Under the pieces are notes generated by a model. That model searched no databases, was not told the DNA's origin, and saw only the letters and a program-made list of their open reading frames with translations. Below, in pieces: positions 3,609 to 31,887 of a stretch of 64,000 nt of DNA (position 1 is the first letter of the stretch; every line of letters begins with the position of its first letter). The stretch lies in NCBI RefSeq assembly GCF_044792175.1, contig NZ_CP172866.1; one strand, given 5' to 3'. This DNA is from Corallococcus coralloides. Its GTDB lineage: Bacteria; Myxococcota; Myxococcia; Myxococcales; Myxococcaceae. The position numbers and the translations under genes are program-made.

Positions 3609-3625
3609 ACCCCCGGAGACGCTCC

Positions 3626-4498: not shown

Positions 4499-4502
4499 GC
4501 GC

Positions 4503-5900: not shown

Positions 5901-5927
5901 GGAGGACGGAGGGGGCCCGGTGGGCCC

Positions 5928-7042: not shown

Positions 7043-7334
7043 TCAGCCCCCTCCTGCGTCTTCCGGGCCTTCTACCGTTACCCGGCACGCGCGAACAACC
7101 CGCTACGCCCGGTTCTCCAACACTCGCGCAATGAAGATACCCGCGTCCTCCAGCCTCAGGCCCCGGGCCAGCGCTCCCAGCCCCTGGCCCGCCAGGGAGA
7201 CGAGCGGCCGGGGGAGCCTGCGCAGGGCGCGCGCCCGGTCCGCCAGGCTGTCGGCCTCGAAGTCCAGGCCCCCGAAGGTGTCCCTGACGCTTCCGCGCGT
7301 CCCCCGTCACGTGGCCGCCCGGCTCCCAGGCCGG

Positions 7335-14221: not shown

Positions 14222-14234
14222 GCCCTGTCGTCCA

Positions 14235-14278
14235 GCGGCGGGCGGTCCTCGAAAGGGGGCCGCCCGTCGTCATTTTCA
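14235..14278 (+). terminator. Putative intrinsic terminator between convergent genes
   Basis: The stem cggcgggcgg/ccgcccgtcg spans about 14236-14245 and 14260-14269, with a tcctcgaaaggggg loop, and is followed by cattttc. Confidence 0.3.
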
Positions 14279-14761: not shown

Positions 14762-14809
14762 GGTCAGGACTACGCCGGGGGCGAGGGGGCGGTTACAGCC
14801 GGGCCCGGC

Positions 14810-15430
14810 TCAGCGGGGCGCGTAGTTGTGGCTCAGGTCGAAGACGAGCGTCTTCACGATGGGCGGGATGGAGAGCTCGATGCGGCCCCGGTTCAGGTCT
14901 CCGTGGGTGACCTGGTAGGAGAGGCCGCCGAACTCGTCATCGAAGGTGTAGTTGTCGTTGTCGAAGATGGAGATTTCGAGCGGGTAGCGCAGCAGGTTGG
15001 AGGTGATGATCTGGCAGCCGCCGGTGCGCCATTCGGGATCCCAGCTCTCGCTTTCCTCGGTGCGGGTGCGCTCGGGAGCGGAGGGGCAGTTCATCTCCAC
15101 GACGACGTCCGGCGGGGAGCCGTCGGAGTCCCAGTCCTCGCCCGTGTCCGGGTCGACGTCCGCGATGGTGGCGTACCGGGGCTGGATGAAGGTGCGCATC
15201 ACGCCCACGTAGCAGGTGTGCTGGTCGAGCCGGCAGACACTGCCCTCCGCGCAGGGTTCACAGACGCTGCCATCGGGGCCGCATTCCGAGTCGCTCCGGA
15301 ACGAGATGCACTCGTTGAACGAGGAGCAGCACCCGTCCGCGCAGTTCTCCGGGGTGCAGTCGTAGGGACCGCAGGCGGGGAGCCACAGCGCGCACATCAG
15401 GATGAACATCCAACCGCCGAGGACTTTCAT
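14810..15430 (-). CDS. Cys-rich secreted protein, paralog A of a two-member family in this window
   Basis: The protein has a signal peptide and about 12 Cys in its first 70 residues (CGPYDCTPENCADGCCSSFNEC...). Its conserved block DWDSDGSPPDVVVEMNCPSAP is shared with the protein encoded at 19500..20159. Confidence 0.6.
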   Translation of the reverse strand: MKVLGGWMFILMCALWLPACGPYDCTPENCADGCCSSFNECISFRSDSECGPDGSVCEPCAEGSVCRLDQHTCYVGVMRTFIQPRYATIADVDPDTGEDWDSDGSPPDVVVEMNCPSAPERTRTEESESWDPEWRTGGCQIITSNLLRYPLEISIFDNDNYTFDDEFGGLSYQVTHGDLNRGRIELSIPPIVKTLVFDLSHNYAPR

Positions 15431-15453
15431 GAGCGCGGTGAACGCTACCCGCT

Positions 15454-15960
15454 TCAGGGCCTTCCGTCCCGGGCCTTGCGTGCGATGGCTTTCTCGTAGG
15501 CGGCCTGAAGCTCCCGGAACACCGAGCGGGGAGGGCGCGGCGCGTCCAGGTGCAGGTGGCGCAGCTCCTTCATGAACGCGTTCCAGAGGGGCGGGCCGCC
15601 CTTTTCAAGCAGCTCCGCGCGCACCGAAAGCTCCTCGGTCACCTGCGTGTGCCGGCGGCCCCAGGCGCCCAGGTGCGCGAGCAGGGGCACCAGTTGGATG
15701 GACGCCTCCGTGAGGCTGTAGATGCCCTTCTGCTGGTGGTTCGGATCCGGGCGGCGCGACAGCAGGCCGGACGCGGTCAGGCGCTTCAGCCGGTCCGCGA
15801 GGATGTTGGAGGCGATGCCCTCCTCGCTCCGTGAGAGCAGGTCACCGTAGCTGCGCCGGTTCCCGAACATGACGTCGCGGATGACGATCAGGCTCCAGCG
15901 GTCGCCGAGCTGTTCGAGCGTCAGGTTGATGGGGCAGCCGGAGCGCCCTGTCTGCGGCAT
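15454..15960 (-). CDS. HxlR-family (MarR-like) transcriptional regulator
   Basis: From the internal Met the protein reads MPQTGRSGCPINLTLEQLGDRWSLIVIRDVMFG, the HxlR winged-HTH signature. The gene is divergent from a GST gene. Confidence 0.85.
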   Translation of the reverse strand: MPQTGRSGCPINLTLEQLGDRWSLIVIRDVMFGNRRSYGDLLSRSEEGIASNILADRLKRLTASGLLSRRPDPNHQQKGIYSLTEASIQLVPLLAHLGAWGRRHTQVTEELSVRAELLEKGGPPLWNAFMKELRHLHLDAPRPPRSVFRELQAAYEKAIARKARDGRP

Positions 15961-16044
15961 GGCCGTGCTCCTGGGGATGCTGCTTGCAGTATGCAAGGGG
16001 TCGAAATACGGTTCAACCCATTGTGAAACGCAAGGGGTCGGACG

Positions 16045-16704
16045 ATGTCGCTCGCGGTCTACGGTCACTACTTCTCTTCGTACACGCAGAAGGTGCTCAT
16101 CGCGCTGTATGAGAACGGAACGCCCTTCGAGTTTCGAAGCATCAGCCCGGAGACGCCGGAGCACTCAGCCGAGTGGCTGCGCCGCTGGCCGCTGCGCAAG
16201 TTCCCGCTGCTGGTGGACGGTGACCGTCAGGTCGTCGAGACGAGCATCATCATCGAGTACCTCCAGCTCAAGCATCCCGGGCCGGTGCGCCTGCTGCCCG
16301 AGGATCCGATGGCCGCGCTGGACGTGCGGTTCCTCGACCGGTTCTTCGACCTGCACGTCATGAACGCGGCCCAGCACGCCGTGGACGGGGCGTTGACGGG
16401 GGACCCGGTGAAGCGCCAGGACGGGATGAAGCTGGCGGTGGAGAAGCTGGAGCGCGCCTACGGCTGGATTGAAGGGCAGTTGGGTGGCCGAACCTGGGCG
16501 GCGGGCAACGACTTCACGTTGGCGGACTGTGCGGCGGCGCCGTCGCTGTTCTACGCGGACTGGACGCACCGGATTCCCGAGTCGTGTCCCCAACTGCGCG
16601 CCTATCGCGCGAGGTTGCTCGCGCGTCCGTCTGTTGCCCGTGCGGTGGACGGGGGCCGGCCGTATCGGCATCTCTTCCCGCTGGGAGCGCCGGACCGCGA
16701 TTGA
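16045..16704 (+). CDS. Glutathione S-transferase
   Basis: The protein has the GST N-terminal thioredoxin-like and C-terminal helical domains (LPEDPMAALDVRFLDRF..., TLADCAAAPSLFYADW). Confidence 0.85.
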   Translation: MSLAVYGHYFSSYTQKVLIALYENGTPFEFRSISPETPEHSAEWLRRWPLRKFPLLVDGDRQVVETSIIIEYLQLKHPGPVRLLPEDPMAALDVRFLDRFFDLHVMNAAQHAVDGALTGDPVKRQDGMKLAVEKLERAYGWIEGQLGGRTWAAGNDFTLADCAAAPSLFYADWTHRIPESCPQLRAYRARLLARPSVARAVDGGRPYRHLFPLGAPDRD

Positions 16705-16711
16705 GCGAGGC

Positions 16712-18490
16712 TCAGGGCCGCGGGGGAGGGGAGACCGCGGCCATGATGTATCGGGGCAGGAGCTCCTCGCGGAACTTCCGCCAGAGGGAGACGTGGTTGT
16801 AGTTGCCGGCGGTGAAGAGCACGACGAGGTCCAGCTCCGGGACGACCATCACGAGCTGGCCACCGTTCCCGCTGGCTTCGTACTGTGAATACACCCGGTC
16901 ACCGACGCGAAGCTCATGGCGCCACCACGTGTAGCCATAGGTTCGCCCGTCTGGCATCGTCGCCTGTTTCGCGACGGAGCGTTCCACCCAGCGCTGGCTG
17001 ACCACGCGCTTCCCGTTCCAGGTGCCGCCGGAGAGGTAGAGCTGCCCGAGCTTCAGGGCGTCACGAGGGCGCATGTAGATGCCGCCACCCAGGTACTGCT
17101 CACCGTCGGGCATGAGGTCCAGGTGGTAGCCGCGCATCTGGAGGGGCGTGGCGACGTTCTTCGTGAAGAACTCGGGGATCCAGGTACGGGTGGTGTTGCG
17201 GAGGACGCCGCCGAGGAGGTTGATGTTCGCGGAGCAGTACACGGCCTTCCCGCCGCCGGGAGCGCGGACCATGGGGAGGTCCAGCGTGTACTTGTACCAA
17301 TCCGGTACGGAGTCCTCGAGCCGGTCCTCGTTGCCGGGTGACTCTGGATTGTCGTCGTCACAGGCCAGGCCCGTCGCCATGGTCATCAGGTGCGCGACGG
17401 TGACCTTGCGCTTGCGAGCGTCCAGGTTGGAGAGCTTGCCCTTGTACTCAGGGAAGAGTGAGACGACGGGCGTGTCCACGGTGAACGGGGCGCCCTGGTC
17501 CAGGGCGATGCCGATGAGCAGGGACGCATAGGACTTGGAGGAGGACCGCAGGTCGTGGGGACGCTCCTTGTCGAAGCCCTGGAAGTACTCTTCGGCGATG
17601 AGCTTTCCGTGGCGCGCGATGAGCAGGCCCTGGATGGCGGGCACGGACTCCGGGCTCGGTTCCTGGTCGAGGATGCGCTGCACGAGCTGCTGGAGCGGCT
17701 GGACGTCCATGCCGACGTCCGCAGGGGAGGCCGTGGTCCAGCCATCGTCCTCCGCGATGGGCTTCTGGTAGGCGTAGGGGCCAGGAGCAGGAGTGCGGGA
17801 GTAGAGCCCCACGGCCTGCGAGCGGTCCCGACGAGTGAAGTCGAAGCTCGTGTCAAAGGGAGGGTAGGGGAGAGACAGCCGTCCGGACTGCTCGTCGAAC
17901 GTGCCTTCAATCTGGGTGTCACTCTTGGTGTCCGTGAGCCGGACCGTGCGGTCCTGAAGCTCCACACGGAACAGCATCCGGTTGCCGAAGTTCCGCTCCG
18001 GGTTGCGAATGAACGCCGTCACGGAGCCGTCAGGCTGCTTCTGGACGACAAGATACAGCGAGAACCGGTCCTCCAGCGGAGCCACGTTGCCGCGCCAGAC
18101 ACCCGGCTGGAGCGCGCGCAGTTCCACGGGAGAGGCGAACTTCATGCCGCTCATGAGCACACGCGGTTGGATCCAGTGACCCGTGATGCTCTGACTGTTC
18201 TCCATCAACGTCGCTCGGAGTTCTCCTCCTGGGAAGACGACGGACACCTTGCAGCCCTCGAACCGGGCAGGAACATCGAATCCGCCGATGCGCGCGCGCC
18301 AAGTGTCCCCATGCCGGACCAGCGTCAGCTCACCCTGAACCTGAGGCCCAAGAATACGCTCACTGCCCCAGATGCCCACCAACGCCTCCGCAGACATGGG
18401 GACAGCGCCGACATGGAAAGGCAGCAGCGCCAACAGGAGCCCGATGAGCCTTCGGGAGCTGGAGTGCACGGTGGATGCGTGGAGGGTCAT
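16712..18490 (-). CDS. Secreted serine hydrolase, beta-lactamase/transpeptidase-like fold with an N-terminal extra domain
   Basis: The protein has a signal peptide. SSSKSY (an S-x-x-K active-site motif) lies at about residue 316 in a beta-lactamase-like C-terminal half, and YAN lies downstream. Confidence 0.8.
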   Translation of the reverse strand: MTLHASTVHSSSRRLIGLLLALLPFHVGAVPMSAEALVGIWGSERILGPQVQGELTLVRHGDTWRARIGGFDVPARFEGCKVSVVFPGGELRATLMENSQSITGHWIQPRVLMSGMKFASPVELRALQPGVWRGNVAPLEDRFSLYLVVQKQPDGSVTAFIRNPERNFGNRMLFRVELQDRTVRLTDTKSDTQIEGTFDEQSGRLSLPYPPFDTSFDFTRRDRSQAVGLYSRTPAPGPYAYQKPIAEDDGWTTASPADVGMDVQPLQQLVQRILDQEPSPESVPAIQGLLIARHGKLIAEEYFQGFDKERPHDLRSSSKSYASLLIGIALDQGAPFTVDTPVVSLFPEYKGKLSNLDARKRKVTVAHLMTMATGLACDDDNPESPGNEDRLEDSVPDWYKYTLDLPMVRAPGGGKAVYCSANINLLGGVLRNTTRTWIPEFFTKNVATPLQMRGYHLDLMPDGEQYLGGGIYMRPRDALKLGQLYLSGGTWNGKRVVSQRWVERSVAKQATMPDGRTYGYTWWRHELRVGDRVYSQYEASGNGGQLVMVVPELDLVVLFTAGNYNHVSLWRKFREELLPRYIMAAVSPPPRP

Positions 18491-18525
18491 CGAATGACTT
18501 TGGTTCTGGATGTTATAGCCCGGTC

Positions 18526-19512
18526 ATGCGATCCGACCTGGCAGAACGCTGGCTCACACCCGATGGTCAGCGCCGGCGCGAGCGCTTGATCGCCTCGGGA
18601 TTTCAAGGACCCTGGCGTGAAGTCCTCAAGGGCTTTCCGGGAGCAGATGCATTGGGACCCCACGTGGGGGATCTCCGAGGCATCGACCTCGCTCAGGAAG
18701 AGCTACCGGGCGCGGAGTTCGTTCATGTTCGGCTCGATGGCGCCCGCCTGGATGACTGCGGGCTCAACGAGGCGCGGCTCGACTTCACCACGCTGTCTGG
18801 TGCCTCGCTGACCTGGGCGCGCATGGAGCGCGCCAGCCTGATGGCTTGCGTCGCGATGGCCACGTGCTGGGACGATGCTTCCTTGGAAGGGGCAGTCCTC
18901 ACGGCTTCAAACCTGGTTCACGGCTCATTCCGTCGCGCCCGACTTCAGGGCGCCCGTTTGACCGCAGCGACGTTGATGAAGGCGGACCTGCGCTGCGCTG
19001 ATCTCCGAGGCGCGGAGTTGTCCTTCTGTGACATGGAGGAAGCGTGCGTCGCGGGTGTTCGCACGGATTGGCCTCGCACCTATGGGCGGGCAGGGCTGGG
19101 CAATGCGGACGTGAGCTATTACCGGGATCATGGCGGGTACCCATCATTCATGGATGCCATCCTGCTCGACCCGGGTATGCGCGCGCTCCGATGGTTGGAC
19201 AGGAAGGAAATCCTGATGCATGTGGAAGCAGCGGTCGAGATGAGCCCCGCGGTGGATGCTGAAATCCTCGCGCTCCTCCTGGATCCAGACTTTGAGGCAG
19301 CGGTGCGCTTACGACTCGAGGCCCCGGATGAGCTGCGGTACGAGGCTGCCTCCAGCCTCATGTGGGCTCTTGGCTTGGATCAAAGCAAGAATGTGTGGGG
19401 ACGCTCAGGGGTGTCGATTTGTCAGCGCTGGATGGCAAACCTCCGCAAGAACATGGCCGCCAGCATCCAACAACGCTGGCGGCGGGCCGAGGTGTCCGTC
19501 TATTCGGCGTAG
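18526..19512 (+). CDS. Pentapeptide-repeat protein
   Basis: The protein has runs of A(D/N)L-type pentapeptides (TLSGASLTWARMERASLMACVAMATCWDDASLEGAVLTASNLVHGSFRRARLQGARLTAATLMKADLRCADLRGAEL). I chose the internal ATG at 18526. Confidence 0.7.
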   Translation: MRSDLAERWLTPDGQRRRERLIASGFQGPWREVLKGFPGADALGPHVGDLRGIDLAQEELPGAEFVHVRLDGARLDDCGLNEARLDFTTLSGASLTWARMERASLMACVAMATCWDDASLEGAVLTASNLVHGSFRRARLQGARLTAATLMKADLRCADLRGAELSFCDMEEACVAGVRTDWPRTYGRAGLGNADVSYYRDHGGYPSFMDAILLDPGMRALRWLDRKEILMHVEAAVEMSPAVDAEILALLLDPDFEAAVRLRLEAPDELRYEAASSLMWALGLDQSKNVWGRSGVSICQRWMANLRKNMAASIQQRWRRAEVSVYSA

Positions 19513-20159
19513 TATGTGGTGATCTGGAGGGCCAAGGAGAGCAACGCACCGGAACTCGTGAACTCCACGACGCCACGGTCAATGTCGGCTCGGGTCATCT
19601 GATACTGCGCAGACGCAATCGGGTCGTCAAAGAGGGTGTCAACGTCAATGACGGTGAACTGGATGGGGGCCGAAAGCAGATCGGTACTCAGGACGTCGCA
19701 TGCCCCCTGCGTCCACGTAGGGGTGAAGCTTTCAACTTCCTCCGAAGGGGGCGCAGGCTGTGCGTTGGGACAGGACAGCTTGACCACGACATCCGGCGGC
19801 GAGCCATCTACGTCCCAGTCACTGTTGTCAGCAGGATCCTGCGGAGCGATCGTGGCGCGCAGGGGCTGGATCTTCGTGCGAATGGTGGGGGTGTAGCACT
19901 GTTGCTGTGACGGATGGCAGATGGTCCCGGTCGCGCACTTCGAGCATTTGGTGCCGGTAACACCGCACGCGTCGTTGGTACGAACTTCGACGCACTGGTT
20001 CGTGGTCGGATCGCAGCAGCCTGCACAATTCGCTGCAGTACAGATTTCTTCGAGTGGCGGGTTCTCCGTGATGGGGCCTGAGCTTGAGTCTTCGGGCCCA
20101 CAGCCTGCTAGCAAGAGAATCGACGTCAGCCCAAGAAGAATTCGGTTGTTGAATGTCAT
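19500..20159 (-). CDS. Cys-rich lipoprotein, paralog B (lipobox LLAGC)
   Basis: The protein starts MTFNNRILLGLTSILLLAGCG. It has a Cys-rich N-terminal region and the DWDVDGSPPDVVVKLSCPNAQ block shared with 14810..15430. It lies 6 nt downstream of the SIR2-like gene on the same strand and is lower in GC. Confidence 0.6.
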   Translation of the reverse strand: MTFNNRILLGLTSILLLAGCGPEDSSSGPITENPPLEEICTAANCAGCCDPTTNQCVEVRTNDACGVTGTKCSKCATGTICHPSQQQCYTPTIRTKIQPLRATIAPQDPADNSDWDVDGSPPDVVVKLSCPNAQPAPPSEEVESFTPTWTQGACDVLSTDLLSAPIQFTVIDVDTLFDDPIASAQYQMTRADIDRGVVEFTSSGALLSLALQITTYYAE

Positions 20160-20165
20160 TGGTTG

Positions 20166-21893
20166 TTAGTTGAGGTGGAGAACCAACACGCGGGTGCCTT
20201 TGTCCATGCGAACTTCAGCGGTGGCCATCCGAGTCACAGGAATGCTCGCGACCTGCGCCCTTCTGTTGCTGGGCGTGGGAGTGATGACGATGGGCGCAGG
20301 GTTCGGATACCCCAGGGCCGTGATGGTTGGGGCATCCGCGTAGCCCACGAGGTACAGGGATCCATCCGAGAGCGCGCGATGAAGCTCAATTCCCTCCTGG
20401 ATGAGGCCATAGATGGGTGTATCCGCGCTGTAGGTGGGAACGGTGCTCATCGGTACAAATGCGTAGCGTCCCCTGGGAAGCTGCGAGACGCGAGCCCCAC
20501 GCTCGGCGTCCGAAGCGGCGACGACCTGATGCTGCTGGCGAACGCTTCTGAGCGTGCTCGCGAGTGCCGGGACCGGAGCAGTCGTCGGGGGCTGCGGCTG
20601 GACAGGTCTCAGATTCCGCGGAGTCTGAACGACAAAGACGTCATTGTTGACGCTTTTGCTCGGGGATGGCCAGACCGCTGCCACGCCGCCAGCAATCAGC
20701 GCGGCAGCAGCAAACGGCAGGATTCTCCCGGAGCCTGATTTCGAAGGGCTGGCTGTGCCGTCCGTCTTCGGAGCGGAACGGGAAGCGGGACGATCCGAAG
20801 CGGAGGGCACAGGCTCGGGTGGCTTCGCCGCACTTGAGTGGGGCGAGGTCGCCGGCCCAGGGGCTCTGGTGGCCGAGGCGATTGGGATGGATGGCGGCGG
20901 TGGCTGTCGGACTGTGCTTGGAGGGGGCGACTGCGGGGCAACGGATGCGCCAAAGTGTTGACGCAGTTCAGGGAAGAATTTGTGGCAATCGATTCCGCCA
21001 TAACAACGAAGCCCTTTGTTGCCTCGTAAATTGGCAACCCTGCTGAAGAGCGTCGGATTACAGGCCTCGATTATAGCGTCATTCTTCTCGTAGAAACCCC
21101 AGAGGATGTCGACATCCTTGTGCCTGTCGACGTCAATCGCCGCGAGTGTCTGGGTGAAGACATCATCCCATCCGCCGTATCCGATAACGACAAGTGTGTG
21201 GCTTTGAAGGATCTGGATCAGTTCCGCAGAGACGAGTTTGCGCTCGCGACCAAGCTGGATGCCAGTGTGCAACGTAGGCGAGTCATGCCAGTAGCCGTGA
21301 AGGTGGATGATGTGCGTGGATTTGGAAGAGGAAGGAACCGTCTGCCCGAACGGGCTGTCGTGAGTCACGATCGTGCGATGGAAATCACCGCCAGCCACCT
21401 TCACCGATGCTGAGATGAGGGGATCAAAATTCGTGGTCAAGACGGGGCCAAACGTATCGGCTCTCTCCACCAGCAATCTTCCGAGATGCTCCGTCGCGGG
21501 AGGTAAGGCCCATCCGCCATAATCCAGATCCAGTTCGTCGTCAGTCGCTGCTCCATCGCGTTGGCGGTCCACCCGTGCGCGAAGCACAGCCTCTCGAACA
21601 ACCTTCTCGGAGACTTTCTTGTCCTCAAGGCCTTGCACGAAATGCATGGCCCATTGGTATCTGTTCTCTTTGGTGTGCTCGCGCTCCGTGTCGAATCTCG
21701 CCTTGAATCCGGTCGGGACGTGCTCGCGGATGAGATCCAGCATCGCCTCTACCCCAGGCACCTGGGGGGCGTCGGCTCGTTCCTGCGTCGACAAGGGGGA
21801 ACCGACCAGAAACGCGATTTTCCGGCTTTTGGCGGCAGTGATGACAGCGTTGGGGAGAGCATCCTTGGGATGCAGGAACGAATAGGAACTCAT
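20166..21893 (-). CDS. SIR2-like (SIR2_2/DHS-like NAD-binding) domain protein with Pro/Ser-rich linker, one TM helix and C-terminal domain
   Basis: The N-terminal 300 aa carry the SIR2_2 hallmarks FLVGSPLS, TTNFDPLIS, IIHLHGYW and VVIGYGGWDD. A low-complexity P/S/A linker follows, then a hydrophobic helix ILPFAAAALIAGGVAAVW and a roughly 160-aa C-terminal region. The gene is low in GC (about 48-55%). Confidence 0.75.
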   Translation of the reverse strand: MSSYSFLHPKDALPNAVITAAKSRKIAFLVGSPLSTQERADAPQVPGVEAMLDLIREHVPTGFKARFDTEREHTKENRYQWAMHFVQGLEDKKVSEKVVREAVLRARVDRQRDGAATDDELDLDYGGWALPPATEHLGRLLVERADTFGPVLTTNFDPLISASVKVAGGDFHRTIVTHDSPFGQTVPSSSKSTHIIHLHGYWHDSPTLHTGIQLGRERKLVSAELIQILQSHTLVVIGYGGWDDVFTQTLAAIDVDRHKDVDILWGFYEKNDAIIEACNPTLFSRVANLRGNKGLRCYGGIDCHKFFPELRQHFGASVAPQSPPPSTVRQPPPPSIPIASATRAPGPATSPHSSAAKPPEPVPSASDRPASRSAPKTDGTASPSKSGSGRILPFAAAALIAGGVAAVWPSPSKSVNNDVFVVQTPRNLRPVQPQPPTTAPVPALASTLRSVRQQHQVVAASDAERGARVSQLPRGRYAFVPMSTVPTYSADTPIYGLIQEGIELHRALSDGSLYLVGYADAPTITALGYPNPAPIVITPTPSNRRAQVASIPVTRMATAEVRMDKGTRVLVLHLN

Positions 21894-21932
21894 CGAGGGC
21901 GAACGCTATCAGAACCGCAGGCGGGGCCTAAT

Positions 21933-23498
21933 TCATGCGGCTCGCTCACTTGGTCGACCTTGTTCCTCCTCTTGGAGTGCCAATGTCTTCCGGTATTCCG
22001 CAGCCTCGGCCGCCCGGGTCAGTTCAAACTCACCGTGATGCTTGCGGACTGCCTCCGCGATCTCATCCAGGCCGACGCGGAAGAACTCCTTTCGCTCATT
22101 GATGCGGTTGACTCGCCGGTTCGCGAAGGCCTTGTGCAGGGCGTTCTCCAGGGCAGGGGCGTCCGAGGTCCGGATGATGGCGTGGACATCGAACTCGAAC
22201 GGCACCGAGGCATCTCCAAGTTCATCGATGCGGTCCTGGGGGACCAATCGTCGGGTCATCCCCAGCTTGAACACGCCCTCGCCGAAGGAACCAATATTGG
22301 AGATGACGTAGACGTGCCCGGTGCGGGTGAGCTGTGCCTGGGAGATGGCGCGCTGCTTCTCCATGTCTTCTGCCACACGGCGCTCCAGCTCCGCGATGCG
22401 CTCCATCAGCTTCTGCTGCTCCGAGCCCTTCGCCTGCTCGTAGTCCGCCCGCGCCTTGGCCAGCGCTTCTGCATCGCGCTTCGCTTCGCGCTCCGCTTCC
22501 AGCTTCGCCTTCTCCAACTCGCGTTGGGCGGCTTCCTCCTCACGCATCTGCTCCCGGATCCGGCGCTGCTCGTCACGCTCCTGCTGCACCTTCTCCTCGT
22601 ACTCGTACGCGAGCATCAGCTCCTCGACCTTGAGCTTGACGTAGCGCCTGGCGATGACGCACTGCTGGATCTCCGCGAGACCATTGATGGCGGCGGCTGC
22701 CTTCTCGATGCGCGTCTCCATGGCCTTGACGTTCTTGTAGGACACCTTCGCTACACACGCGTCCGCCTCGCCATTGAAGGCCCGGAGCATCAGCTTCAAG
22801 GTCCGCTCAATCTGCTTCTTGCCTTCCGCCTTGCTTCCATTCACTTCCCACTGAATGGAGCACGTGGCGGCTTCCTTGTTCTTCAGCATCTGCTTCTGAG
22901 CGTCGCGGATCTTCTCCAGCCGGTCCTCGTACTCCTTGACCGACGCCAGCGCGTACACCGGTTTGTAGAAGCCGAAGGAGAGCAGGACCTCCTCTTCCTC
23001 CAGTGCCTTCAACTCGGCCCTCAGGCGGGCGATGCCTGACTCCAGGTTGGTCCGCTCAGCGTTCGCCTGCTTTCGACGGGCTTCTGCCTCCTCCATGGCG
23101 CGCGTCGCGCTTTGCGTCGTCCGGCTCGTCTCTTCGCGGAGCCGGTTCAACTCCGCTTTCGCTCGGCCCTGCTCAGCGGCGATGGCCTGCTCAACGTCCG
23201 CTTTTGCCCGGGCAAGCTCGGTCTCTACCCGCTTCCGCTCCGCCGCCAGTGCACTGTCCGCTTCGCTCCGTGCCTTCGCCAAATCGTCCTGGACCCGCTT
23301 CTGTTCCGCGGCCATCGCGGTGGTCGCGTCCGTGCGGGCCCGCGTCAACTCCTCCGCGACCCGGCGCCGTTCGGCCTCCAGGTCCAGGATGGGCTTGAAT
23401 CGTTCCTGGACGGCTTTGAGCCGGCTCTGTGTCCGCAGCCACAAGCCAAGGAGCAACAGGCCCAGAATGCCCAGGCCAATGGCGATGATCGTTGTCAT
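21933..23498 (-). CDS. Membrane-anchored coiled-coil protein with DUF4041 and C-terminal T5orf172 (GIY-YIG-like) domain
   Basis: I chose the internal ATG at 23498, which has AGGAGA 6 nt upstream and avoids overlap with the helicase gene. The N-terminus has a TM helix (TTIIAIGLGILGLLLLGLWL), and about 200 aa of E/R/A-rich coiled coil follow. The C-terminus reads GHVYVISNIGSFGEGVFKLGMTRRLVPQDRIDELGDASVPFEFDVHAIIRTSDAPALENALHKAF...EFF, the T5orf172/MUG113 signature. Confidence 0.75.
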   Translation of the reverse strand: MTTIIAIGLGILGLLLLGLWLRTQSRLKAVQERFKPILDLEAERRRVAEELTRARTDATTAMAAEQKRVQDDLAKARSEADSALAAERKRVETELARAKADVEQAIAAEQGRAKAELNRLREETSRTTQSATRAMEEAEARRKQANAERTNLESGIARLRAELKALEEEEVLLSFGFYKPVYALASVKEYEDRLEKIRDAQKQMLKNKEAATCSIQWEVNGSKAEGKKQIERTLKLMLRAFNGEADACVAKVSYKNVKAMETRIEKAAAAINGLAEIQQCVIARRYVKLKVEELMLAYEYEEKVQQERDEQRRIREQMREEEAAQRELEKAKLEAEREAKRDAEALAKARADYEQAKGSEQQKLMERIAELERRVAEDMEKQRAISQAQLTRTGHVYVISNIGSFGEGVFKLGMTRRLVPQDRIDELGDASVPFEFDVHAIIRTSDAPALENALHKAFANRRVNRINERKEFFRVGLDEIAEAVRKHHGEFELTRAAEAAEYRKTLALQEEEQGRPSERAA

Positions 23499-23511
23499 GG
23501 ATGTCTCCTGT

Positions 23512-26500
23512 TCAGGCGCTGACGGCCCGCATCTGATGCTCCACCGGGGACTCTTCACGCACGACGGCTGGCAGCTCAGCCGCCTCCTCCCGAAGGAGCT
23601 CCTCGACGCGCGCGACGATCCGGGCGACCTCTTCTGAAGGCGAGCGGAACCAGTCCGTGGACCAGATGCGGTGAAGCTTCCACCCCAGGCCCTTCAACAC
23701 CTGGTCCCGGAGCCGGTCCCGGTCCCGCGCGGAACGCGACGAGTGGTACCGCTCGCCGTCACACTCGACACCGAGGATGTACCGGCCTGGTTGCTGGGGA
23801 TGCCGGAGGGCCATGTCGATGAAGTAGCCCGCAACGCCTACCTGCGGAACCACCTCGAAGCCCCGCGCCGCGAGCGCCTTCGCGACGGCGATTTCGAAGT
23901 CGGAATCCGGTGGACGGCCGCTCCCCACGCCGTGCGCCACCTTCTCTCCCTTGGCTTCGGACAGGTACCGTTGCAGGACGCGCATCCCACGGGGACTGCT
24001 CTCCTGGACCTTGAGCTGTGACGGGTCGAAGGACGCGAACACCGTCAGTGCACACCGCGCCCTCGTGAAGAGGACGTTCAACCGGCGGTATCCGTCCGCC
24101 TGGTTGATGGGCCCGAAGTTCATCCGGAAGCGCTCGTTCTTGTCGGGACCGAACGTGACCGACACGAAGATGGCGTCGCGCTCGTCGCCTTGCACGTTCT
24201 CCAGGTTCTTCACGTCGAAGGGCATGGGTGACTTCTCCCACTTCGCCAGGAAGGCTCGGAGGGTCGCGTCGTTCTTCTCCTCGGCAGTCACCAGGTCGTC
24301 GATGAGATCCCGCTGCTTCGAATTCAGCGTGACGACCAACAGGCTCTGCTCAGGACGTGTCCGCGCGTGCTCCTTCACCTTCGCCAGCACTTCGCGGGCT
24401 TCGGGGACGTTTCGGTTGGACTCGTACAGTCCTCCGTCCACTTTGTGGAAGCGCAGCCCCAAACCTTCCAGTTGCTCACCTGGTGCAGGGAAGGTGATGA
24501 GGTCGCCGTTGTAGAACTCACGATTGCTGAAGGCGATGAGCGAGGGGTGACGTGAACGGTAATGCCAGCGCAGCATGCGCATGGGGAACCGCTCCGCCGC
24601 CGCCGTGAGGATGCTCTCTGAATCCTCCAGGAAGGACGGGCCCTGAGCCTCGTCTCCCGCCTCGTCGTTGGACTCTGTGTCCTCCTGTTCCATCTGGGCG
24701 AAGAAGCTGGTGGGAGGGAGTTGCTCCGGGTCGCCCACTACCACCAACTGTCTCCCTCGCGCGATGGCGCCCAGCGCATCTTCGGGACGCATCTGGCTGG
24801 CCTCGTCCATCACGACCAGGTCGAAGGTCAACTGGCCGGCGGGCAGGTACTGGGCGACCGACTGCGGACCCATCATGAAACACGGCATCAGCGTCTGGAG
24901 CGCACTGCCGGCACGGGCGACCAGTTCACGAATGGGGAGGTGCCGCTGCTTCTTTCCCAACTCGTGCCGCAGAAGATGGGTCTCCGTCATACCCGCCACT
25001 TTCGCCGAGGACACACCCGGAGGAACCGGACGCTGGCTGAGTTGACGTGCCAGGTATCGGCCCTGCCTTTCGATGCAATGCGTGTCCAGGCGTGCGAACT
25101 CCTCTCTCTGGGAGGCATGAACGGCGCCCGTGAACTGGTCGAGCTCGGGTTGGTCTCGCAGGATGGCTTCCGCCAGGGAGCGGAAGAAGACAGCGTCGAA
25201 GGCCGCGACCAGCCGTTCCGGCTCCAGGCCCGGACGTGTGTCGACGCGCTCCAGGAACCCAGCGGTGCTCCGCGCTCGCGCGACGGCACGCCGCTGCCGT
25301 TGATACGCGCACCAGGCTGGAAGCGTCGCGGACTGGCTTCGGGCCTGGCGCAGTCGCAAGACCGTCGATTGGAGCGGCTTCTCGGCGGCGAGATCCTCCC
25401 AGGTGCCCTGGGCCATCCTTCCCAGCTCCCGGGCTTGGGTTGCGGACTGTCTGTAGGCACTGAGGGCTGTCTCCAATTCGTTCGTGATGGCGAGCAGGTC
25501 CGCGTGCCTTCGTGGCGTGTCCTCTCGTAGCAGCCACTCCGCCAGCCCTTCAGGGAGCGGCGCCGCGAGGAGGTCATCAACATGTCGGAGGATGCTTCGG
25601 GGACCCGCTAGGGAGGTTTTCCGCCCCTGGTAGGCCACCCCTGGCAGGGTCGCCGCGGAAGCGTGCGCTTCCAGCCGGTCTGCGGCTTCGCACGCTTCAC
25701 GCACCCGGCGCAGTTGTCCCTGGAGTTGGGAGAGGGTCAGGGACGGCGGGGCATCTCCCTTCCGTGCCCAGTTCAGGACCTGGCTCAGGTGCTTCAGCAG
25801 GGCGTCGAGGCTGTCCTGGGCCTTTCCGCAGGACTCGGTGTTCCAGGGGGCGCTCGGCAGCCCCATGCGCGTCGAGGCTTCTTGCACGAAAGTGCTTACG
25901 TCTCGGACTTGGGACAGTTCTTCGCTCTTCGCGCGGACCATCGCCAGGATCTCGCGCCAATGGCTCGGGGAACGCTCCAACACTGCTCGGCGTAGCTCCA
26001 AACCTCGCTCACCCATGGGGAGGATCAATGCGTCGATGTTCCGGTATGCGTCCAACCACGAAAGGATTCGGTCGAAGCGTGTCTCGACCCCCTGGAAGCG
26101 GGCGCCAAGGGTCGCTTTCAAGGTCGCGTCCTCCTGGAACCGCTCCCGTGCCGCGTAATGAGCCAGCAGGTCGTTGTAGCCCTGAACCAGTACGGGCCTT
26201 GTTGGACGTACGCCATGTGCCATGGCCTGGAAGTCCCGCCGCGCGGCGCGCCAAGCGCTCGAGAGCCAGGGGATGAATGGCGCGGTTGAAACCGCAACCG
26301 CATGGGACTTGAGCGTCGCGAGGGGAGGAACGAGTTCGGGCATGAAGCGCACCGCGAGCGCCCGTGCCTGATCTTTCAATTCCGTACAGGTGCTGTCAGC
26401 CTTCCGAAGTGTCTCCTCGGCTTCGCGTTCGATCCAGCACGGGTCCCGCCACTCCAAAGTGGTGTCGTCCAGGGCGGCCATCGCCTCGACGACGCGGGCG

Positions 26501-28710
26501 AAAGACTGGAGCTGCTGGGGCGTCCAGCGCGTGACGTCGACTTCCAGGCGGGAGGCCACGTCGGCCGCGAACCGGCGAGCCTGCGCCAGGATTCGAGCAG
26601 CGGCCTCCACCGCTTCATGCGCGCGCGTCAGTGTCACGAGCGTGGTGTCAGGCGAGAGCAGACGCAGGGCCATGTCGAGGACGGCTTCCGCGCCGCGCAG
26701 CGCGGACGCGGTCAGGTCTTCCTGGGCACGCCAGCCTGCCTCCAACCCCGCCCACCGGGCCTGGACCGCTTCAATGGCATCAAGCAGGGCTCGTAATCCC
26801 TCTCTCTGCGTGGAATCGAGCAGGGCAGGGACCAGCGTCGCGGGAGTCCCTTCTGGAAGCCGTGGCAGGACTCGGACGTTGGAGATCAGCGCATCCACCG
26901 CGAGTGCGCTCGAGCTGGGCGTGACGCCCGTGCGGACGGTGAAGGCCGCCAGCGCCTTCTCCAGGAGCAGCGCGGACTCCTCCCAGGTGGCGATACGCTG
27001 AACGAGTGTCTGACGGTCCTTGTCGGTCAGCGCATCGTTCGTCACACCCGCCCAGGGGTGGGCACTGAGGATGGGCGCGACGCGGCGAACATCCCCAAGC
27101 TGCGCCGCGAGACTCCGAACCGCGTCGCGAACCTCCGATAGCGCATGGGTAGACATGCCTTCGGCGCCCTCGAAGCGGAGGCCTTCCAGCTCCACGACCG
27201 CGTCTCCCAGTTCCGATTCCGCGCGACTGACCTTCCAGAACACGTCATGCGGTGACATGCCGAGTGTCCCGAACGGCTTGTGCATTCGCTCGGTATGCGC
27301 GCGCAGGATGCCCGCCGCGTTCGAGACCTGTTCGGTGAGCGGGCGGGGAGCGGTCGCGCTCGCATCCAGGTTGAGTCGGCGACGCAGGTCCTCCATGAAC
27401 TGCTGTTTCTGGGTCTTGTGGCTGTGCAACTCCAGGCAGAACTCGCCGAGCCCCGCATGCTGGAGGCGGCGTGAGACGACCTCCAACGCCGCCAACTTCT
27501 GCGTGACGAACAGCACGGTCTTGCCCGCCGCCAACGCCGCGCCAATGAGGTTGGTGATGGTCTGTGATTTCCCGGTGCCGGGCGGCCCTTGCACCACCAG
27601 ATTCTCGCCCCGGAGCACGTCCACCAACACGCTGTGCTGGCTGCTGTCCGCGTCCGTGATGAGTGGCGGCGGATTGACCTCCTGCGAGTCCAAATCGTAG
27701 ACCTCGCTCCGGCGCTCCCGGCTGCCCCCGCCACCTCCGCCAGGTTCGTTCGCCTCCGCCTGTCCTCCCATCAGCGTCCGGACGAGCGGGTTCGCCAGCA
27801 TGGGGCTGTTCTGAGGCCAGCGGCTGGGCTCCAGGTCCCGCCACATCAGGAGCCGCCCGAAGGACAGGAGCGTCAGGGTCACCTGCCGCTCCAGGCTCCA
27901 GCCAGGGCGCAGGCCTTTGAGCAGCGCCGTCACCTTGTCGAAGTACGCCTCCAGCCCCTCCTCCGCGGAGAAGGCCGGCAGCGTGATGCCGAACTCCTGC
28001 CGCAGCTTCTCCTGGAGCGTGAGGTTCGAGTCGATGGACTCGCCTTCATTGTAGTCCACCTCGTAGGAGTGGACCTGCGTCTCCGGGTGGGCTTGGCCGC
28101 GTTTGAGGCTCACAGGCATGAGCACGAGTGGAGCGCTGCGAGGCTTCTCCTGCCGCGTGTCGCCGGACTCGTACCAGCGCAGGAACCCGAAGGCGAAGTG
28201 GAGCAGATTGGCCCCGGTCTCCTGGATGGCCGTTTGCGCGAGGCCCTGGAGTCGGTGCAGGTGGCTCTCCAGATCCTCCGGGAAGTACAACGTCTGGAGG
28301 TGGCGATCCTGGTGCTTGCGAGGATTGCTGCCGCTCTCTGCCGGGACCGCCTTGGGCAGCTCATACCGGGTATCGATGCCCAGCTTCTTCGCTTGTTGAA
28401 GCAGCAGCTTCTGCCGAGCGTCCTTGCTTGGGGCCTCCTCCGTCGTCATCGAAAACACCACCGTCGCGGCGGCGGGATCGAAGTCCTCCTCTTCCTCGGA
28501 GGCTTGCTCCGGTGGCATCACCGGAAGGAACGTGAGCGCGCGGTGGTTGCTCAGGCGCTCGAAGACGACACCTGGCAGTTCATCCACAATGCGCAGCGAC
28601 GTCCGGGCCGTGTGCTTGAAGTTGAGGAGTCGGTTGGTTGCGCTCAAATCCAGCAACCGGGTGCGTTGCCGCTGAAGCTCTTTCAGCAGGACCGAGTCGT
28701 GCGGATTCAT
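23512..28710 (-). CDS. Giant SF1 (Upf1-like, AAA_11/AAA_12) helicase with DUF4011-like N-terminus and C-terminal DUF559/Vsr-like endonuclease (REase_MTES/DUF3320) domain
   Basis: The start is the ATG at 28710 (MNPHDSVLLKELQRQRTRLLDLSATNRLLNF). The earlier ORF start at 28869 would add a low-complexity extension. The Walker A motif is VVQGPPGTGKSQTITNLI. The helicase has QLVVVGDPEQLPPT (motif III-like) and NVLFTRARCALTVF (motif VI). The C-terminus reads GYFIDMAL...ILGVECDGERYHSSRSARDRDRLRDQVLKGLGWKLHRIWSTDWF, the DUF559/Vsr-fold endonuclease motif. Confidence 0.85.
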   Translation of the reverse strand: MNPHDSVLLKELQRQRTRLLDLSATNRLLNFKHTARTSLRIVDELPGVVFERLSNHRALTFLPVMPPEQASEEEEDFDPAAATVVFSMTTEEAPSKDARQKLLLQQAKKLGIDTRYELPKAVPAESGSNPRKHQDRHLQTLYFPEDLESHLHRLQGLAQTAIQETGANLLHFAFGFLRWYESGDTRQEKPRSAPLVLMPVSLKRGQAHPETQVHSYEVDYNEGESIDSNLTLQEKLRQEFGITLPAFSAEEGLEAYFDKVTALLKGLRPGWSLERQVTLTLLSFGRLLMWRDLEPSRWPQNSPMLANPLVRTLMGGQAEANEPGGGGGGSRERRSEVYDLDSQEVNPPPLITDADSSQHSVLVDVLRGENLVVQGPPGTGKSQTITNLIGAALAAGKTVLFVTQKLAALEVVSRRLQHAGLGEFCLELHSHKTQKQQFMEDLRRRLNLDASATAPRPLTEQVSNAAGILRAHTERMHKPFGTLGMSPHDVFWKVSRAESELGDAVVELEGLRFEGAEGMSTHALSEVRDAVRSLAAQLGDVRRVAPILSAHPWAGVTNDALTDKDRQTLVQRIATWEESALLLEKALAAFTVRTGVTPSSSALAVDALISNVRVLPRLPEGTPATLVPALLDSTQREGLRALLDAIEAVQARWAGLEAGWRAQEDLTASALRGAEAVLDMALRLLSPDTTLVTLTRAHEAVEAAARILAQARRFAADVASRLEVDVTRWTPQQLQSFARVVEAMAALDDTTLEWRDPCWIEREAEETLRKADSTCTELKDQARALAVRFMPELVPPLATLKSHAVAVSTAPFIPWLSSAWRAARRDFQAMAHGVRPTRPVLVQGYNDLLAHYAARERFQEDATLKATLGARFQGVETRFDRILSWLDAYRNIDALILPMGERGLELRRAVLERSPSHWREILAMVRAKSEELSQVRDVSTFVQEASTRMGLPSAPWNTESCGKAQDSLDALLKHLSQVLNWARKGDAPPSLTLSQLQGQLRRVREACEAADRLEAHASAATLPGVAYQGRKTSLAGPRSILRHVDDLLAAPLPEGLAEWLLREDTPRRHADLLAITNELETALSAYRQSATQARELGRMAQGTWEDLAAEKPLQSTVLRLRQARSQSATLPAWCAYQRQRRAVARARSTAGFLERVDTRPGLEPERLVAAFDAVFFRSLAEAILRDQPELDQFTGAVHASQREEFARLDTHCIERQGRYLARQLSQRPVPPGVSSAKVAGMTETHLLRHELGKKQRHLPIRELVARAGSALQTLMPCFMMGPQSVAQYLPAGQLTFDLVVMDEASQMRPEDALGAIARGRQLVVVGDPEQLPPTSFFAQMEQEDTESNDEAGDEAQGPSFLEDSESILTAAAERFPMRMLRWHYRSRHPSLIAFSNREFYNGDLITFPAPGEQLEGLGLRFHKVDGGLYESNRNVPEAREVLAKVKEHARTRPEQSLLVVTLNSKQRDLIDDLVTAEEKNDATLRAFLAKWEKSPMPFDVKNLENVQGDERDAIFVSVTFGPDKNERFRMNFGPINQADGYRRLNVLFTRARCALTVFASFDPSQLKVQESSPRGMRVLQRYLSEAKGEKVAHGVGSGRPPDSDFEIAVAKALAARGFEVVPQVGVAGYFIDMALRHPQQPGRYILGVECDGERYHSSRSARDRDRLRDQVLKGLGWKLHRIWSTDWFRSPSEEVARIVARVEELLREEAAELPAVVREESPVEHQMRAVSA

Positions 28711-28814
28711 GGAGGTGCCCCCCGGGTCGTCATGGGTGGGACGACCTGGCACCCAGGTTCTGGCGCACTCCTCGCCGCGGTTGCATCCCCCGTGAGGGTG
28801 ATTGACACCCACGC

Positions 28815-28857
28815 GAAAACGCCGCCTCGCTTCCGGAGGACCGGAAACGGGCGGCGT
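28815..28857 (-). terminator. Rho-independent terminator of the ABC-F gene
   Basis: The plus strand 28819-28857 reads aa-gccgcc-tcgc-ttccgg-agga-ccggaa-acg-ggcggc-gt. It has an outer stem of about 8 bp and an inner stem of 6 bp. On the minus-strand RNA the hairpin is followed by UUUUCGCG. Confidence 0.45.
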
Positions 28858-28882
28858 AGGCACTGCCAAGAGTAGCGAAGGA

Positions 28883-31887
<3,005 letters not shown>

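What the first reader, a model, noticed from the sequence alone, without database searches (positions are those of the whole stretch)
23512..28710. 1732-aa Upf1-like helicase fused to DUF559/Vsr-like endonuclease domain
The protein has Walker A GPPGTGKSQT, motifs III and VI typical of AAA_11/AAA_12 helicases, and a C-terminal ...GVECDGERYHSSRSARDRDRLRDQVLKGLGWKLHRIW... module of the Vsr/DUF559 restriction-endonuclease-like fold. This architecture (DUF4011-helicase-DUF3320-like) is widespread, but to my knowledge it has no firmly assigned function. Its position at the head of the SIR2/T5orf172 cluster suggests it is the sensor/helicase of a defence module.
Basis: partly seen in the sequence, partly recalled or inferred. 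Interest (0 to 1): 0.55.

Follow-up and report, generated by a model that had tools for sequence, protein, structure and literature searches.

The report
Hhe-family antiphage helicase-nuclease gene
This 1732-residue gene of Corallococcus coralloides is a divergent member of Hhe, a known single-protein phage-defence family, and it lies in a variable defence hotspot beside other self-sufficient defence genes rather than acting as their sensor.

Summary
An intact 1732-aa ORF lies on the minus strand at 23512..28710. It has DUF4011, a split Upf1-like SF1 helicase core and a C-terminal Vsr-like (MTES_1575) nuclease. It has no DUF3320.

The function is not unassigned. The protein aligns end to end with Hhe, the single-gene antiphage system of Gao et al. 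2020. It scores 1448.7 bits on NCBIfam Hhe_antiphage (equivalog cut-off 2000), 948 bits on PADLOC Hhe and 1267 bits on PADLOC PDC-S37. It is 33% identical over its full length to a plasmid Hhe annotated by NCBI. It belongs to a minority variant with no tail after the nuclease.

The "head of a SIR2/T5orf172 module" reading is mostly unsupported:
- The T5orf172 neighbour is SNIPE (PD-lambda-1), a proven stand-alone system.
- SNIPE is adjacent in only 2 of 80 family loci, and the SIR2 gene in none.
- No flanking gene family recurs across the loci.
- SNIPE occurs without the helicase at the same chromosomal site in C. exercitus.

A helicase+SNIPE pair is nevertheless kept in one Myxococcaceae clade, in six loci.

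The finding is an ordinary new member of a known family. The mechanism of Hhe itself is still unresolved, and neither the DUF4011 domain nor the 860-aa helical insert has a solved structural relative.

The parts
23512..28710 (-). Hhe-like gene, 1732 aa (ATG 28710, TGA 23512-23514). No predicted transmembrane segment, so cytoplasmic.
28003..28659 (-). DUF4011 domain (residues 18-236). The whole N-terminal region 1-345 folds as one confident mixed alpha/beta module.
27412..27651 (-). N-terminal half of helicase RecA1 (residues about 354-433): DADSSQHS, Walker A GPPGTGKSQT (27559..27588), motif Ia.
24841..27423 (-). About 860-residue all-alpha insertion (residues 430-1290 as modelled) that splits RecA1 between motifs Ia and II. 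It is a string of helical bundles, rich in Ala, Leu and Arg. It is the fastest-evolving part (22-28% identity to relatives outside the close Corallococcus-like clade, against about 40% for the N-terminal region).
24034..24828 (-). Rest of the SF1 core (residues 1295-1559): motif II MDEASQ (24793..24810), motif III VGDPEQLPPT, WHYRSRHP, motif V NVQGDERD, motif VI RRLNVLFTRAR.
   Evidence: Pfam AAA_11/AAA_12. Invariant columns.. PDB sequence hits Sen1, IGHMBP2, DNA2.
23608..23898 (-). Vsr-fold nuclease REase_MTES_1575 (residues 1605-1701). Invariant D1632, E1649-C-D1651-G, Y1655-H1656, SARDRDRLR. The ECDG motif is at 23755..23766.
   Evidence: Pfam E 4e-37. Invariants.. Aligned with the ECDG motif of Klebsiella Hhe.
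21933..23498 (-). CONTEXT, not part of the system: SNIPE / PD-lambda-1 homologue, 521 aa. It has an N-terminal TM helix (residues 1-23), DUF4041 and a T5orf172 GIY-YIG nuclease. It has its own AGGAG RBS and starts 13 nt after the Hhe-like stop.
   Evidence: (PADLOC 509 bits)
19500..21893 (-). CONTEXT: a separable two-gene module. The first gene is an SIR2_2 protein with a Pro-rich linker, one TM segment and a C-terminal domain (20166..21893). The second is a lipoprotein-like Cys-rich protein, orf219 (19500..20159). A 12-bp hairpin follows at 19456..19483.

Best explanation
The gene encodes a divergent, tail-less member of the Hhe family. This is a single-polypeptide, cytoplasmic antiphage helicase-nuclease that works on its own.

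Shown here:
- The domain order is DUF4011, then an SF1 (Upf1/DNA2-like) ATPase whose first RecA domain is split by an about 860-aa helical-bundle insert, then a Vsr-fold nuclease.
- It is collinear over its full length with annotated Hhe.
- All ATPase and nuclease motifs are intact.
- It is an accessory gene that evolves faster than the flanking core genes.
- It sits in a variable hotspot between the core genes ABC-F and BrkB.
- It has no conserved partner gene across the family.

Inferred mechanism:
- The protein engages phage DNA, most likely replication or recombination intermediates or single-stranded regions.
- It translocates with ATP hydrolysis, probably 5'->3' as Upf1-like SF1B enzymes do.
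- It cuts DNA with the C-terminal Vsr-like nuclease.
- DUF4011 and the helical insert probably act as a substrate-recognition, autoinhibition or oligomerisation scaffold.

The neighbouring SNIPE and SIR2+lipoprotein genes are separate defence systems stacked in the same hotspot. They are probably co-transcribed with the helicase gene.
For: Family assignment:
- NCBIfam Hhe_antiphage scores 1448.7 bits, with one stretch covering residues 12-1723 against profile positions 2-1701 of 1797.
- PADLOC gives Hhe 948 bits and PDC-S37 1267 bits.
- BLASTP against Klebsiella plasmid Hhe (annotated by NCBI; its own model score is 2732 bits) gives 33% identity over 1836 alignment columns.

Intact motifs: invariant Walker A, DEASQ, VGDxxQLPPT, NVQGDERD, RRLNVLFTRA, and D1632, E1649, D1651 and H1656 in a 14-sequence alignment.

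What is known of Hhe:
- It is a single gene, active against lambda, T3, T7 and PhiV-1. A nuclease-site mutation (E1731A) abolishes defence.
- Seven T7 class II DNA-metabolism genes and Bas63 g40 were identified as potential triggers. g40 was toxic only in the presence of hhe.
- A phage anti-hhe gene exists.

Autonomy:
- SNIPE is adjacent in 2 of 80 family loci and SIR2 in 0 of 80.
- No recurrent flanking ORF family was found.
- The 119 immediate neighbours hit varied PADLOC families (GajA, AriA, Old, LmuB, Cas3g, mad3), each in 2-3 proteins at most.

Accessory and fast-evolving:
- The protein is 69% identical to its C. sicarius orthologue, while the flanking ABC-F protein is 95.9% identical.
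- It is absent from the same site in C. exercitus.
- Gene GC is 65.8% against 69.6% for the window.
Against: - The score is below the NCBIfam equivalog cut-off (2000), so NCBI names it only "DUF4011 domain-containing protein".
- It lacks the about 100-130-aa C-terminal tail of canonical Hhe and two about 66-aa segments in the DUF4011 region.
- No member of this Myxococcaceae clade has been tested against phage.
- The mechanism of Hhe is not established. PhageMaP even hints at a link to NAD+/adenine metabolism. Substrate, polarity and trigger are therefore inferences.
- A DUF4011 gene is a core gene in every P. aeruginosa isolate, so not every family member need be a mobile defence gene.
Confidence: 0.78

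Rival explanations
1. One reading: the helicase is the sensor/motor subunit of one multi-gene system whose effectors are the downstream T5orf172 (SNIPE-like) nuclease and/or the SIR2 protein.
For: - Four co-directional genes have gaps of 13, 39 and 6 nt, with a hairpin only after the last one.
- The helicase+SNIPE pair is retained in all six relatives of at least 57% identity, in at least three genomic contexts, with 13-30-nt spacing.
- A 41%-identical Hhe-like gene in another Myxococcaceae MAG also abuts a 69%-identical SNIPE, in convergent orientation.
Against: - SIR2+orf219 is absent from L082, L001 and L086, and from 0 of 80 family loci.
- SNIPE is adjacent in only 2 of 80 loci.
- SNIPE stands alone in M. 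xanthus, Archangium and Sorangium, and at the same ABC-F/BrkB site in C. exercitus.
- Relatives of 39-40% identity lack SNIPE.
- Hhe and SNIPE each defend alone in E. coli.
- The helicase already has its own nuclease.
Confidence: 0.1
2. It is a housekeeping genome-maintenance helicase-nuclease (DNA2/Vsr-like repair) rather than an immune protein.
For: - The nuclease has the Vsr repair-endonuclease fold, and the helicase core is DNA2/Sen1/IGHMBP2-like.
- A large DUF4011 gene is present in every P. aeruginosa isolate, as a boundary marker of a defence hotspot.
Against: - It is accessory within Corallococcus.
- It diverges far faster than the flanking core genes.
- It lies among defence genes here and in other phyla.
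- It is common on plasmids: 547 plasmid records match.
- Family members are experimentally antiphage.
Confidence: 0.07
3. It is a decaying or inactive relic of Hhe that has lost its C-terminal DNA-binding tail.
For: - It has no tail after the nuclease, whereas most family loci have 100-250 aa there.
- Its scores are below the equivalog cut-offs.
Against: - The reading frame is full-length and intact.
- All catalytic motifs are invariant.
- The tail-less form is conserved over 57-90% identity in the clade, and nine other loci from unrelated taxa have tails under 50 aa.
Confidence: 0.04

Closest known systems
Hhe (HheA). Described by Gao et al. 2020, Science (from my own knowledge; the paper could not be opened). 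Models: NCBIfam NF042953, PADLOC Hhe.
   Same: - It is a single large protein with the same domain order: DUF4011, a split SF1 helicase with a long helical insert (Walker A to motif II about 920-940 aa in the Hhe-like loci), then an MTES_1575 Vsr-like nuclease.
- It aligns end to end (33% identity to Klebsiella Hhe).
- The (I/V)ECDG nuclease motif is invariant.
- It has no partner gene.
   Different: - It scores 1448.7 bits against a 2000-bit cut-off.
- It lacks the about 100-130-aa C-terminal tail and two about 66-aa N-terminal segments.
- It comes from a high-GC myxobacterium.
- It has not been tested against phage.
ProA (NCBIfam NF058533) and PADLOC candidate PDC-S37: the DUF4011-helicase-MTES_1575-DUF3320 proteins.
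   Same: They share DUF4011, the helicase core, the insert and the nuclease. PDC-S37 is the best PADLOC model, at 1267 bits.
   Different: - ProA-type proteins (L024, L037, L015; 1550-1622 bits) carry a 200-250-aa tail that contains DUF3320. Aravind's group describes that region as a wHTH pair. The tail is absent here.
- This protein scores 1139 bits against the 1500-bit ProA cut-off.
- I found no literature on ProA or PDC-S37.
Upf1-like SF1B helicases and helicase-nucleases (DNA2, Sen1, IGHMBP2); Mokosh MkoA/MkoC.
   Same: They share the AAA_11/AAA_12 motor with the same motifs. These are the only PDB sequence matches (E 1e-6 to 1e-4). The PADLOC MkoA and MkoC hits cover the motor only.
   Different: They have no DUF4011, no 860-aa insert in RecA1 and no Vsr-type nuclease. 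The DNA2 nuclease is N-terminal and of a different family.
SNIPE / PD-lambda-1 (the neighbouring gene).
   Same: It is also a stand-alone nuclease-based defence protein. It is physically adjacent to the helicase gene and co-inherited with it in this clade.
   Different: It is unrelated in sequence. It is membrane-anchored and cuts DNA during injection. It is found without the helicase in most Myxococcaceae loci examined.

Membership tests
Hhe (single-gene antiphage helicase-nuclease) | N-terminal DUF4011 domain | tested here: met
   Pfam PF13195, E 8e-35, residues 18-236.
Hhe (single-gene antiphage helicase-nuclease) | SF1 AAA_11/AAA_12 helicase core with intact motifs I, II, III, V and VI, split by a long insert | tested here: met
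   The insert is present in the canonical Hhe proteins of Klebsiella and Vibrio as well and across the family.
Hhe (single-gene antiphage helicase-nuclease) | C-terminal Vsr-like (MTES_1575) nuclease with a catalytic acidic motif | tested here: met
   Pfam PF18741, E 4e-37. E1649-C-D1651-G is invariant. I could not map the mutated E1731 of E. coli Hhe exactly. In Klebsiella Hhe the motif Glu is E1727.
Hhe (single-gene antiphage helicase-nuclease) | Reaches the curated equivalog score of NCBIfam NF042953 (2000 bits) | tested here: not met
   It scores 1448.7 bits. True Hhe proteins score 2333-2732 bits. Other tail-less relatives score 1158-1999.6 bits.
Hhe (single-gene antiphage helicase-nuclease) | About 100-130-aa C-terminal tail after the nuclease | tested here: not met
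   Only 31 residues follow the domain. The profile match stops at position 1701 of 1797.
Hhe (single-gene antiphage helicase-nuclease) | Acts without a conserved partner gene | tested here: met
   This is comparative evidence only. No flanking family recurs across the 80 loci.
Hhe (single-gene antiphage helicase-nuclease) | Confers phage resistance that depends on the nuclease | not testable with these tools
   Shown only for E. coli hhe.
ProA (NF058533) / DUF3320-bearing branch | Curated score of at least 1500 bits and a C-terminal DUF3320 (wHTH) tail | tested here: not met
   It scores 1139 bits and has no DUF3320. ProA-type loci have both.
   SIR2 is adjacent in 0 of 80 loci and SNIPE in 2 of 80. 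SIR2 is lost in 3 of 6 close relatives. SNIPE occurs alone at the same site in C. exercitus.

The most novel reading that the evidence does not exclude
In the Corallococcus/Myxococcaceae clade, the tail-less Hhe-like helicase-nuclease and SNIPE may have become a cooperating two-gene cassette. For example, SNIPE cuts incoming DNA at the membrane, and the resulting ends or ssDNA load the cytoplasmic helicase-nuclease, which then completes degradation. Loss of the helicase's own wHTH tail would be compensated by this partnership.

The evidence does not exclude this. The pair is kept in six loci of at least 57% identity, in three or more contexts, with 13-30-nt spacing. It recurs once more with a different Hhe lineage in the opposite orientation.
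Probability: 0.12. Interest if true: 0.5.

Novelty: new member of a known kind. Interest (0 to 1): 0.2.

Why it matters
For annotation, the gene and its Myxococcaceae orthologues can be relabelled from "DUF4011 domain-containing protein" to Hhe-like antiphage helicase-nuclease. The ABC-F/BrkB interval can be flagged as a Corallococcus defence hotspot.

It does not open a new biological question. The open questions belong to the whole Hhe/ProA superfamily:
- What triggers these proteins.
- What DUF4011 and the huge helical insert do. Neither has a solved structural relative.
- Why the C-terminal wHTH tail can be dispensed with.

The clade-specific pairing with SNIPE is a small but testable lead on cooperation between stacked defence systems.

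Tried and rejected
- **Gao et al. 2020.** I could not open it. What is stated about hhe comes from papers that cite and re-test it.
- **ProA and PDC-S37.** Literature searches found nothing, so their experimental status is unknown to me. One broad "Hhe OR DUF4011" search was mostly noise.
- **Sigma-70 promoter scan.** It found none. This is uninformative in a 70% GC myxobacterium.
- **tRNA scan.** No tRNA gene or integration site was found in the window.
- **Conserved small partner gene.** I looked by all-against-all clustering of flanking ORFs. The top clusters were antisense shadow ORFs over the helicase 5' end or Hymenobacter synteny.
- **Structure prediction.** The full-length protein exceeds the 1200-aa limit, and the first alignments were too large. 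Only residues 1-345 and 430-1290 were modelled, so domain packing is unknown.
- **P0078 (Anaeromyxobacter).** Its genomic context could not be retrieved.
Full report
**1. Observation**

The window is about 70% GC. It is Corallococcus coralloides: the protein is 100% identical to an NCBI entry named only "DUF4011 domain-containing protein", from a 9.66-Mb contig.

The ORF lies on the minus strand. Mechanically it runs from a TTG at 28869 to a stop at 23512. That start is shared by orthologues of 1724-1734 aa and is preceded by a G-rich ribosome-binding-like stretch. A 172-nt spacer separates it from the upstream ABC-F gene.

The quoted motifs are at the expected places:
- Walker A GPPGTGKSQT at 27559..27588.
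- MDEASQ at 24793..24810.
- GVECDG at 23755..23772.

Pfam gives the following:
- DUF4011, residues 18-236, E 8e-35.
- AAA_11/AAA_30/AAA_19 around the Walker A.
- AAA_11 again at 1295-1335.
- AAA_12 at 1374-1559.
- REase_MTES_1575 at 1605-1701, E 4e-37.
- A sub-threshold DUF559 hit.

**2. What it is**

PADLOC matches PDC-S37 (1267 bits) and Hhe (948 bits). NCBIfam matches two equivalog models:
- Hhe_antiphage scores 1448.7 bits, below its 2000-bit cut-off. It is a single stretch covering residues 12-1723 against profile positions 2-1701 of 1797.
- antiphage_ProA scores 1139 bits, below its 1500-bit cut-off.

A tblastn search of plasmids found 547 records. The best matches are annotated "DUF4011 domain-containing anti-phage protein Hhe" in Vibrio and Klebsiella. 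BLASTP against the 1911-aa Klebsiella Hhe gives 33% identity across 1836 columns, that is, end to end.

In a 14-sequence alignment of relatives down to 35% identity, all helicase motifs and the nuclease residues D1632, E1649, C1650, D1651, G1652, Y1655 and H1656 are invariant. The only PDB sequence matches are the motor domains of Sen1, IGHMBP2 and DNA2. This places the ATPase among Upf1-like SF1B helicases.

**3. Anatomy**

The first RecA domain is split. Walker A and motif Ia lie at residues 375-430, and motif II at 1301-1306.

The protein has no predicted membrane segment.

**4. Subfamily**

Three forms appear among the 80 species-representative loci:
- **ProA-type.** A 200-250-aa tail after the nuclease contains DUF3320. 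These pass the ProA cut-off (L024, L037, L015).
- **Canonical Hhe.** The tail is 100-140 aa and there is no Pfam DUF3320. Klebsiella scores 2732 bits and P. fluorescens L012 scores 2334 bits.
- **Tail-less minority.** Tails are under 50 aa in 9 of 79 loci, including L001. These score highest on the Hhe model but below its cut-off: L004 1376, L014 1158, L031 1999.6 and L001 1398.5 bits.

The window protein belongs to the third form. Compared with Klebsiella Hhe it also lacks two segments of about 66 aa in the DUF4011 region.

Aravind's group defined the MTES_1575 Vsr-type REase and described the region overlapping DUF3320 as a pair of wHTH domains. The missing tail is therefore probably a DNA-binding module.

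**5. What is known of Hhe**

I could not open Gao et al. 2020. Papers that cite or re-test it report the following:
- hhe is a single gene with helicase and Vsr-nuclease domains, active against lambda, T3, T7 and PhiV-1. The active-site mutation E1731A abolishes its (weak) anti-T7 activity. It does not restrict T4.
- PhageMaP identified Bas63 g40 as a trigger, toxic only when hhe is present. It identified seven T7 class II DNA-metabolism genes as potential triggers and argued that hhe responds to their activity rather than to the proteins themselves. It also found NAD+-synthesis genes to be weak counters.
- A DruSM1 ORF65 knockout phage is restricted about 1000-fold by hhe.

No mechanistic or structural paper on Hhe turned up. 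ProA and PDC-S37 could not be traced in the literature.

**6. Is it the head of a module?**

In the window, four co-directional genes follow each other with gaps of 13, 39 and 6 nt: the Hhe-like gene, a DUF4041+T5orf172 gene, an SIR2_2 gene and orf219. A 12-bp hairpin comes only after the last one. Co-transcription is therefore plausible.

The T5orf172 gene matches PD-lambda-1 at 509 bits and has an N-terminal TM helix. It is therefore SNIPE, shown to be a stand-alone membrane nuclease that cuts phage DNA during injection.

I tested linkage in five ways.

(i) Across 80 loci of the helicase family from many phyla and archaea, a relative of the window's SNIPE lies within 10 kb in 2 loci, both Myxococcaceae. 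A relative of the SIR2 gene lies nearby in none.

(ii) All-against-all clustering of flanking ORFs found no family in more than 9 of 80 loci. The top clusters are shadow ORFs or Hymenobacter synteny.

(iii) 119 immediate neighbours scanned against PADLOC hit many different defence families (GajA, AriA, Old, LmuB, Cas3g, mad3), none in more than three proteins. The context is a defence island, with no fixed partner.

(iv) Close relatives show a different picture for the two neighbours. SNIPE immediately follows the helicase in C. caeni (L081), Corallococcus sp. RDP092CA (L082), C. sicarius (L083), Myxococcaceae GXIMD 01537 (L001) and a metagenome contig (L086, 57% identity). These loci span at least three genomic contexts. 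SIR2+orf219 is present only in L081 and L083.

| Locus | Helicase identity (%) | SNIPE identity (%) |
|---|---|---|
| L081 | 89.6 | 90.0 |
| L082 | 86.3 | 90.6 |
| L083 | 69.0 | 86.6 |
| L001 | 71.3 | 83.2 |
| L086 | 56.8 | 67.6 |

A 41%-identical Hhe-like gene in another Myxococcaceae MAG (L005) abuts a 69%-identical SNIPE in convergent orientation. Relatives of 39-40% identity (L087, L088) have no SNIPE.

(v) Seen from the SNIPE side, homologues of 54-68% identity stand without any Hhe-like gene in M. xanthus, Archangium violaceum and Sorangium. Decisively, SNIPE also stands alone directly downstream of ABC-F at the same ABC-F/BrkB site in C. exercitus.

The conclusion has three parts. SIR2+orf219 is a separable module. 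SNIPE and the helicase each occur alone. Their pairing is real but restricted to one lineage, which is most simply explained by two autonomous systems travelling as a cassette in a hotspot.

**7. Accessory status**

The flanking ABC-F protein is 95.9% identical between the window and both L082 and L083. The helicase is 86% and 69% identical respectively. The gene is absent from the same site in C. exercitus.

GC content is 65.8% for the helicase gene, 63.5% for SNIPE and 60.3% for SIR2, against 69.6% for the window. The 12-31-kb stretch is a GC trough.

This refutes the "conserved core gene" alternative for Corallococcus. One nuance: a large DUF4011 gene is present in every P. aeruginosa isolate, at the edge of defence hotspot cDHS1.

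**8. Mechanism**

Shown: the architecture, the intact catalytic motifs, family membership and comparative autonomy.

Inferred: the protein is a cytoplasmic ATP-driven translocase that acts on phage DNA intermediates. It probably moves 5'->3', as established for Upf1-like SF1B enzymes such as DNA2, Sen1 and IGHMBP2. It cuts DNA with its Vsr-fold nuclease. DUF4011 and the helical insert serve recognition, autoinhibition or assembly.

I put 0.78 on "autonomous Hhe-family defence helicase-nuclease", and considerably less (about 0.5) on the specific substrate and polarity. The rivals are:
- A true multi-gene module (0.10).
- A housekeeping repair enzyme (0.07).
- An inactive relic (0.04).

**9. Verdict**

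The sequence observation is correct. The statement that the architecture has no assigned function is out of date. The module hypothesis is largely not supported.

The gene is a new, sub-threshold, tail-less member of a known defence family, so interest is low (0.2). The residual interest lies in two places: the clade-specific Hhe-like+SNIPE cassette, and the fact that the family's mechanism and two of its domains remain structurally and functionally uncharacterised.

Noticed in passing
window 19500..21893 (-): An unclassified two-gene module. The first gene encodes a 575-aa SIR2_2 protein with a Pro-rich linker, one TM helix (residues 389-409) and an about 165-aa C-terminal domain. Six nt later comes orf219, a lipoprotein-like (LLLAGC) Cys-rich protein. 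PADLOC gives only weak SIR2 hits (about 1e-8). The pair travels together in C. caeni (67% and 75% identity) and C. sicarius (47% and 54%), and is absent from other relatives. It may be an undescribed membrane-associated SIR2 defence pair.
   Followed up: partly
window 13160..30481, with loci L081, L082, L083, L091: The interval between the core genes BrkB (13160..14221) and ABC-F (28883..30481) is a variable hotspot in Corallococcus. Its cargo differs between species: the Hhe-like gene, SNIPE, SIR2+orf219, IS66, a radical SAM protein, a Ser/Thr kinase, DUF3800, a beta-lactamase-like protein, a pentapeptide protein, GST and HxlR. No tRNA or integrase was seen in the window.
   Followed up: partly
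window 14810..15430 (-) and 19500..20159 (-): orf206 and orf219 are paralogues. tblastn of orf219 matches the L082 orthologue of orf206 at 38% identity. Both have a signal or lipoprotein-like N-terminus and are Cys-rich, with a weak C2-domain hit in the L083 orthologue of orf206. orf206 is conserved next to BrkB, while orf219 travels with the SIR2 gene.
   Followed up: no
window 21933..23558 (-): The mechanical ORF for the SNIPE homologue starts at a GTG at 23558 and overlaps the helicase 3' end. Orthologues (520-522 aa) and an AGGAG RBS point to the ATG at 23498, giving 521 aa and a 13-nt intergenic gap.
   Followed up: yes
loci L024, L037, L015 versus L012, L084 versus window, L001, L004, L014, L031: The DUF4011 helicase-nuclease superfamily falls into three forms: ProA-type (tail containing DUF3320, 200-250 aa; insert about 620 or about 880 aa), Hhe-type (100-140-aa tail) and tail-less (under 50 aa; 9 of 79 loci). 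Tail-less proteins score highest on the Hhe model and fall below its equivalog cut-off.
   Followed up: partly
locus L087 (Myxococcaceae MAG), 216..7806: A 39%-identical Hhe-like gene sits next to a divergently oriented SNF2 helicase + metallophosphatase + SMC-like ATPase trio. This may be another defence system.
   Followed up: no
literature (bioRxiv 10.1101/2022.11.11.516204): A large DUF4011 gene is reported in every P. aeruginosa isolate, as the right boundary marker of core defence hotspot cDHS1. Some family members therefore behave as core genes flanking hotspots rather than as hotspot cargo.
   Followed up: no
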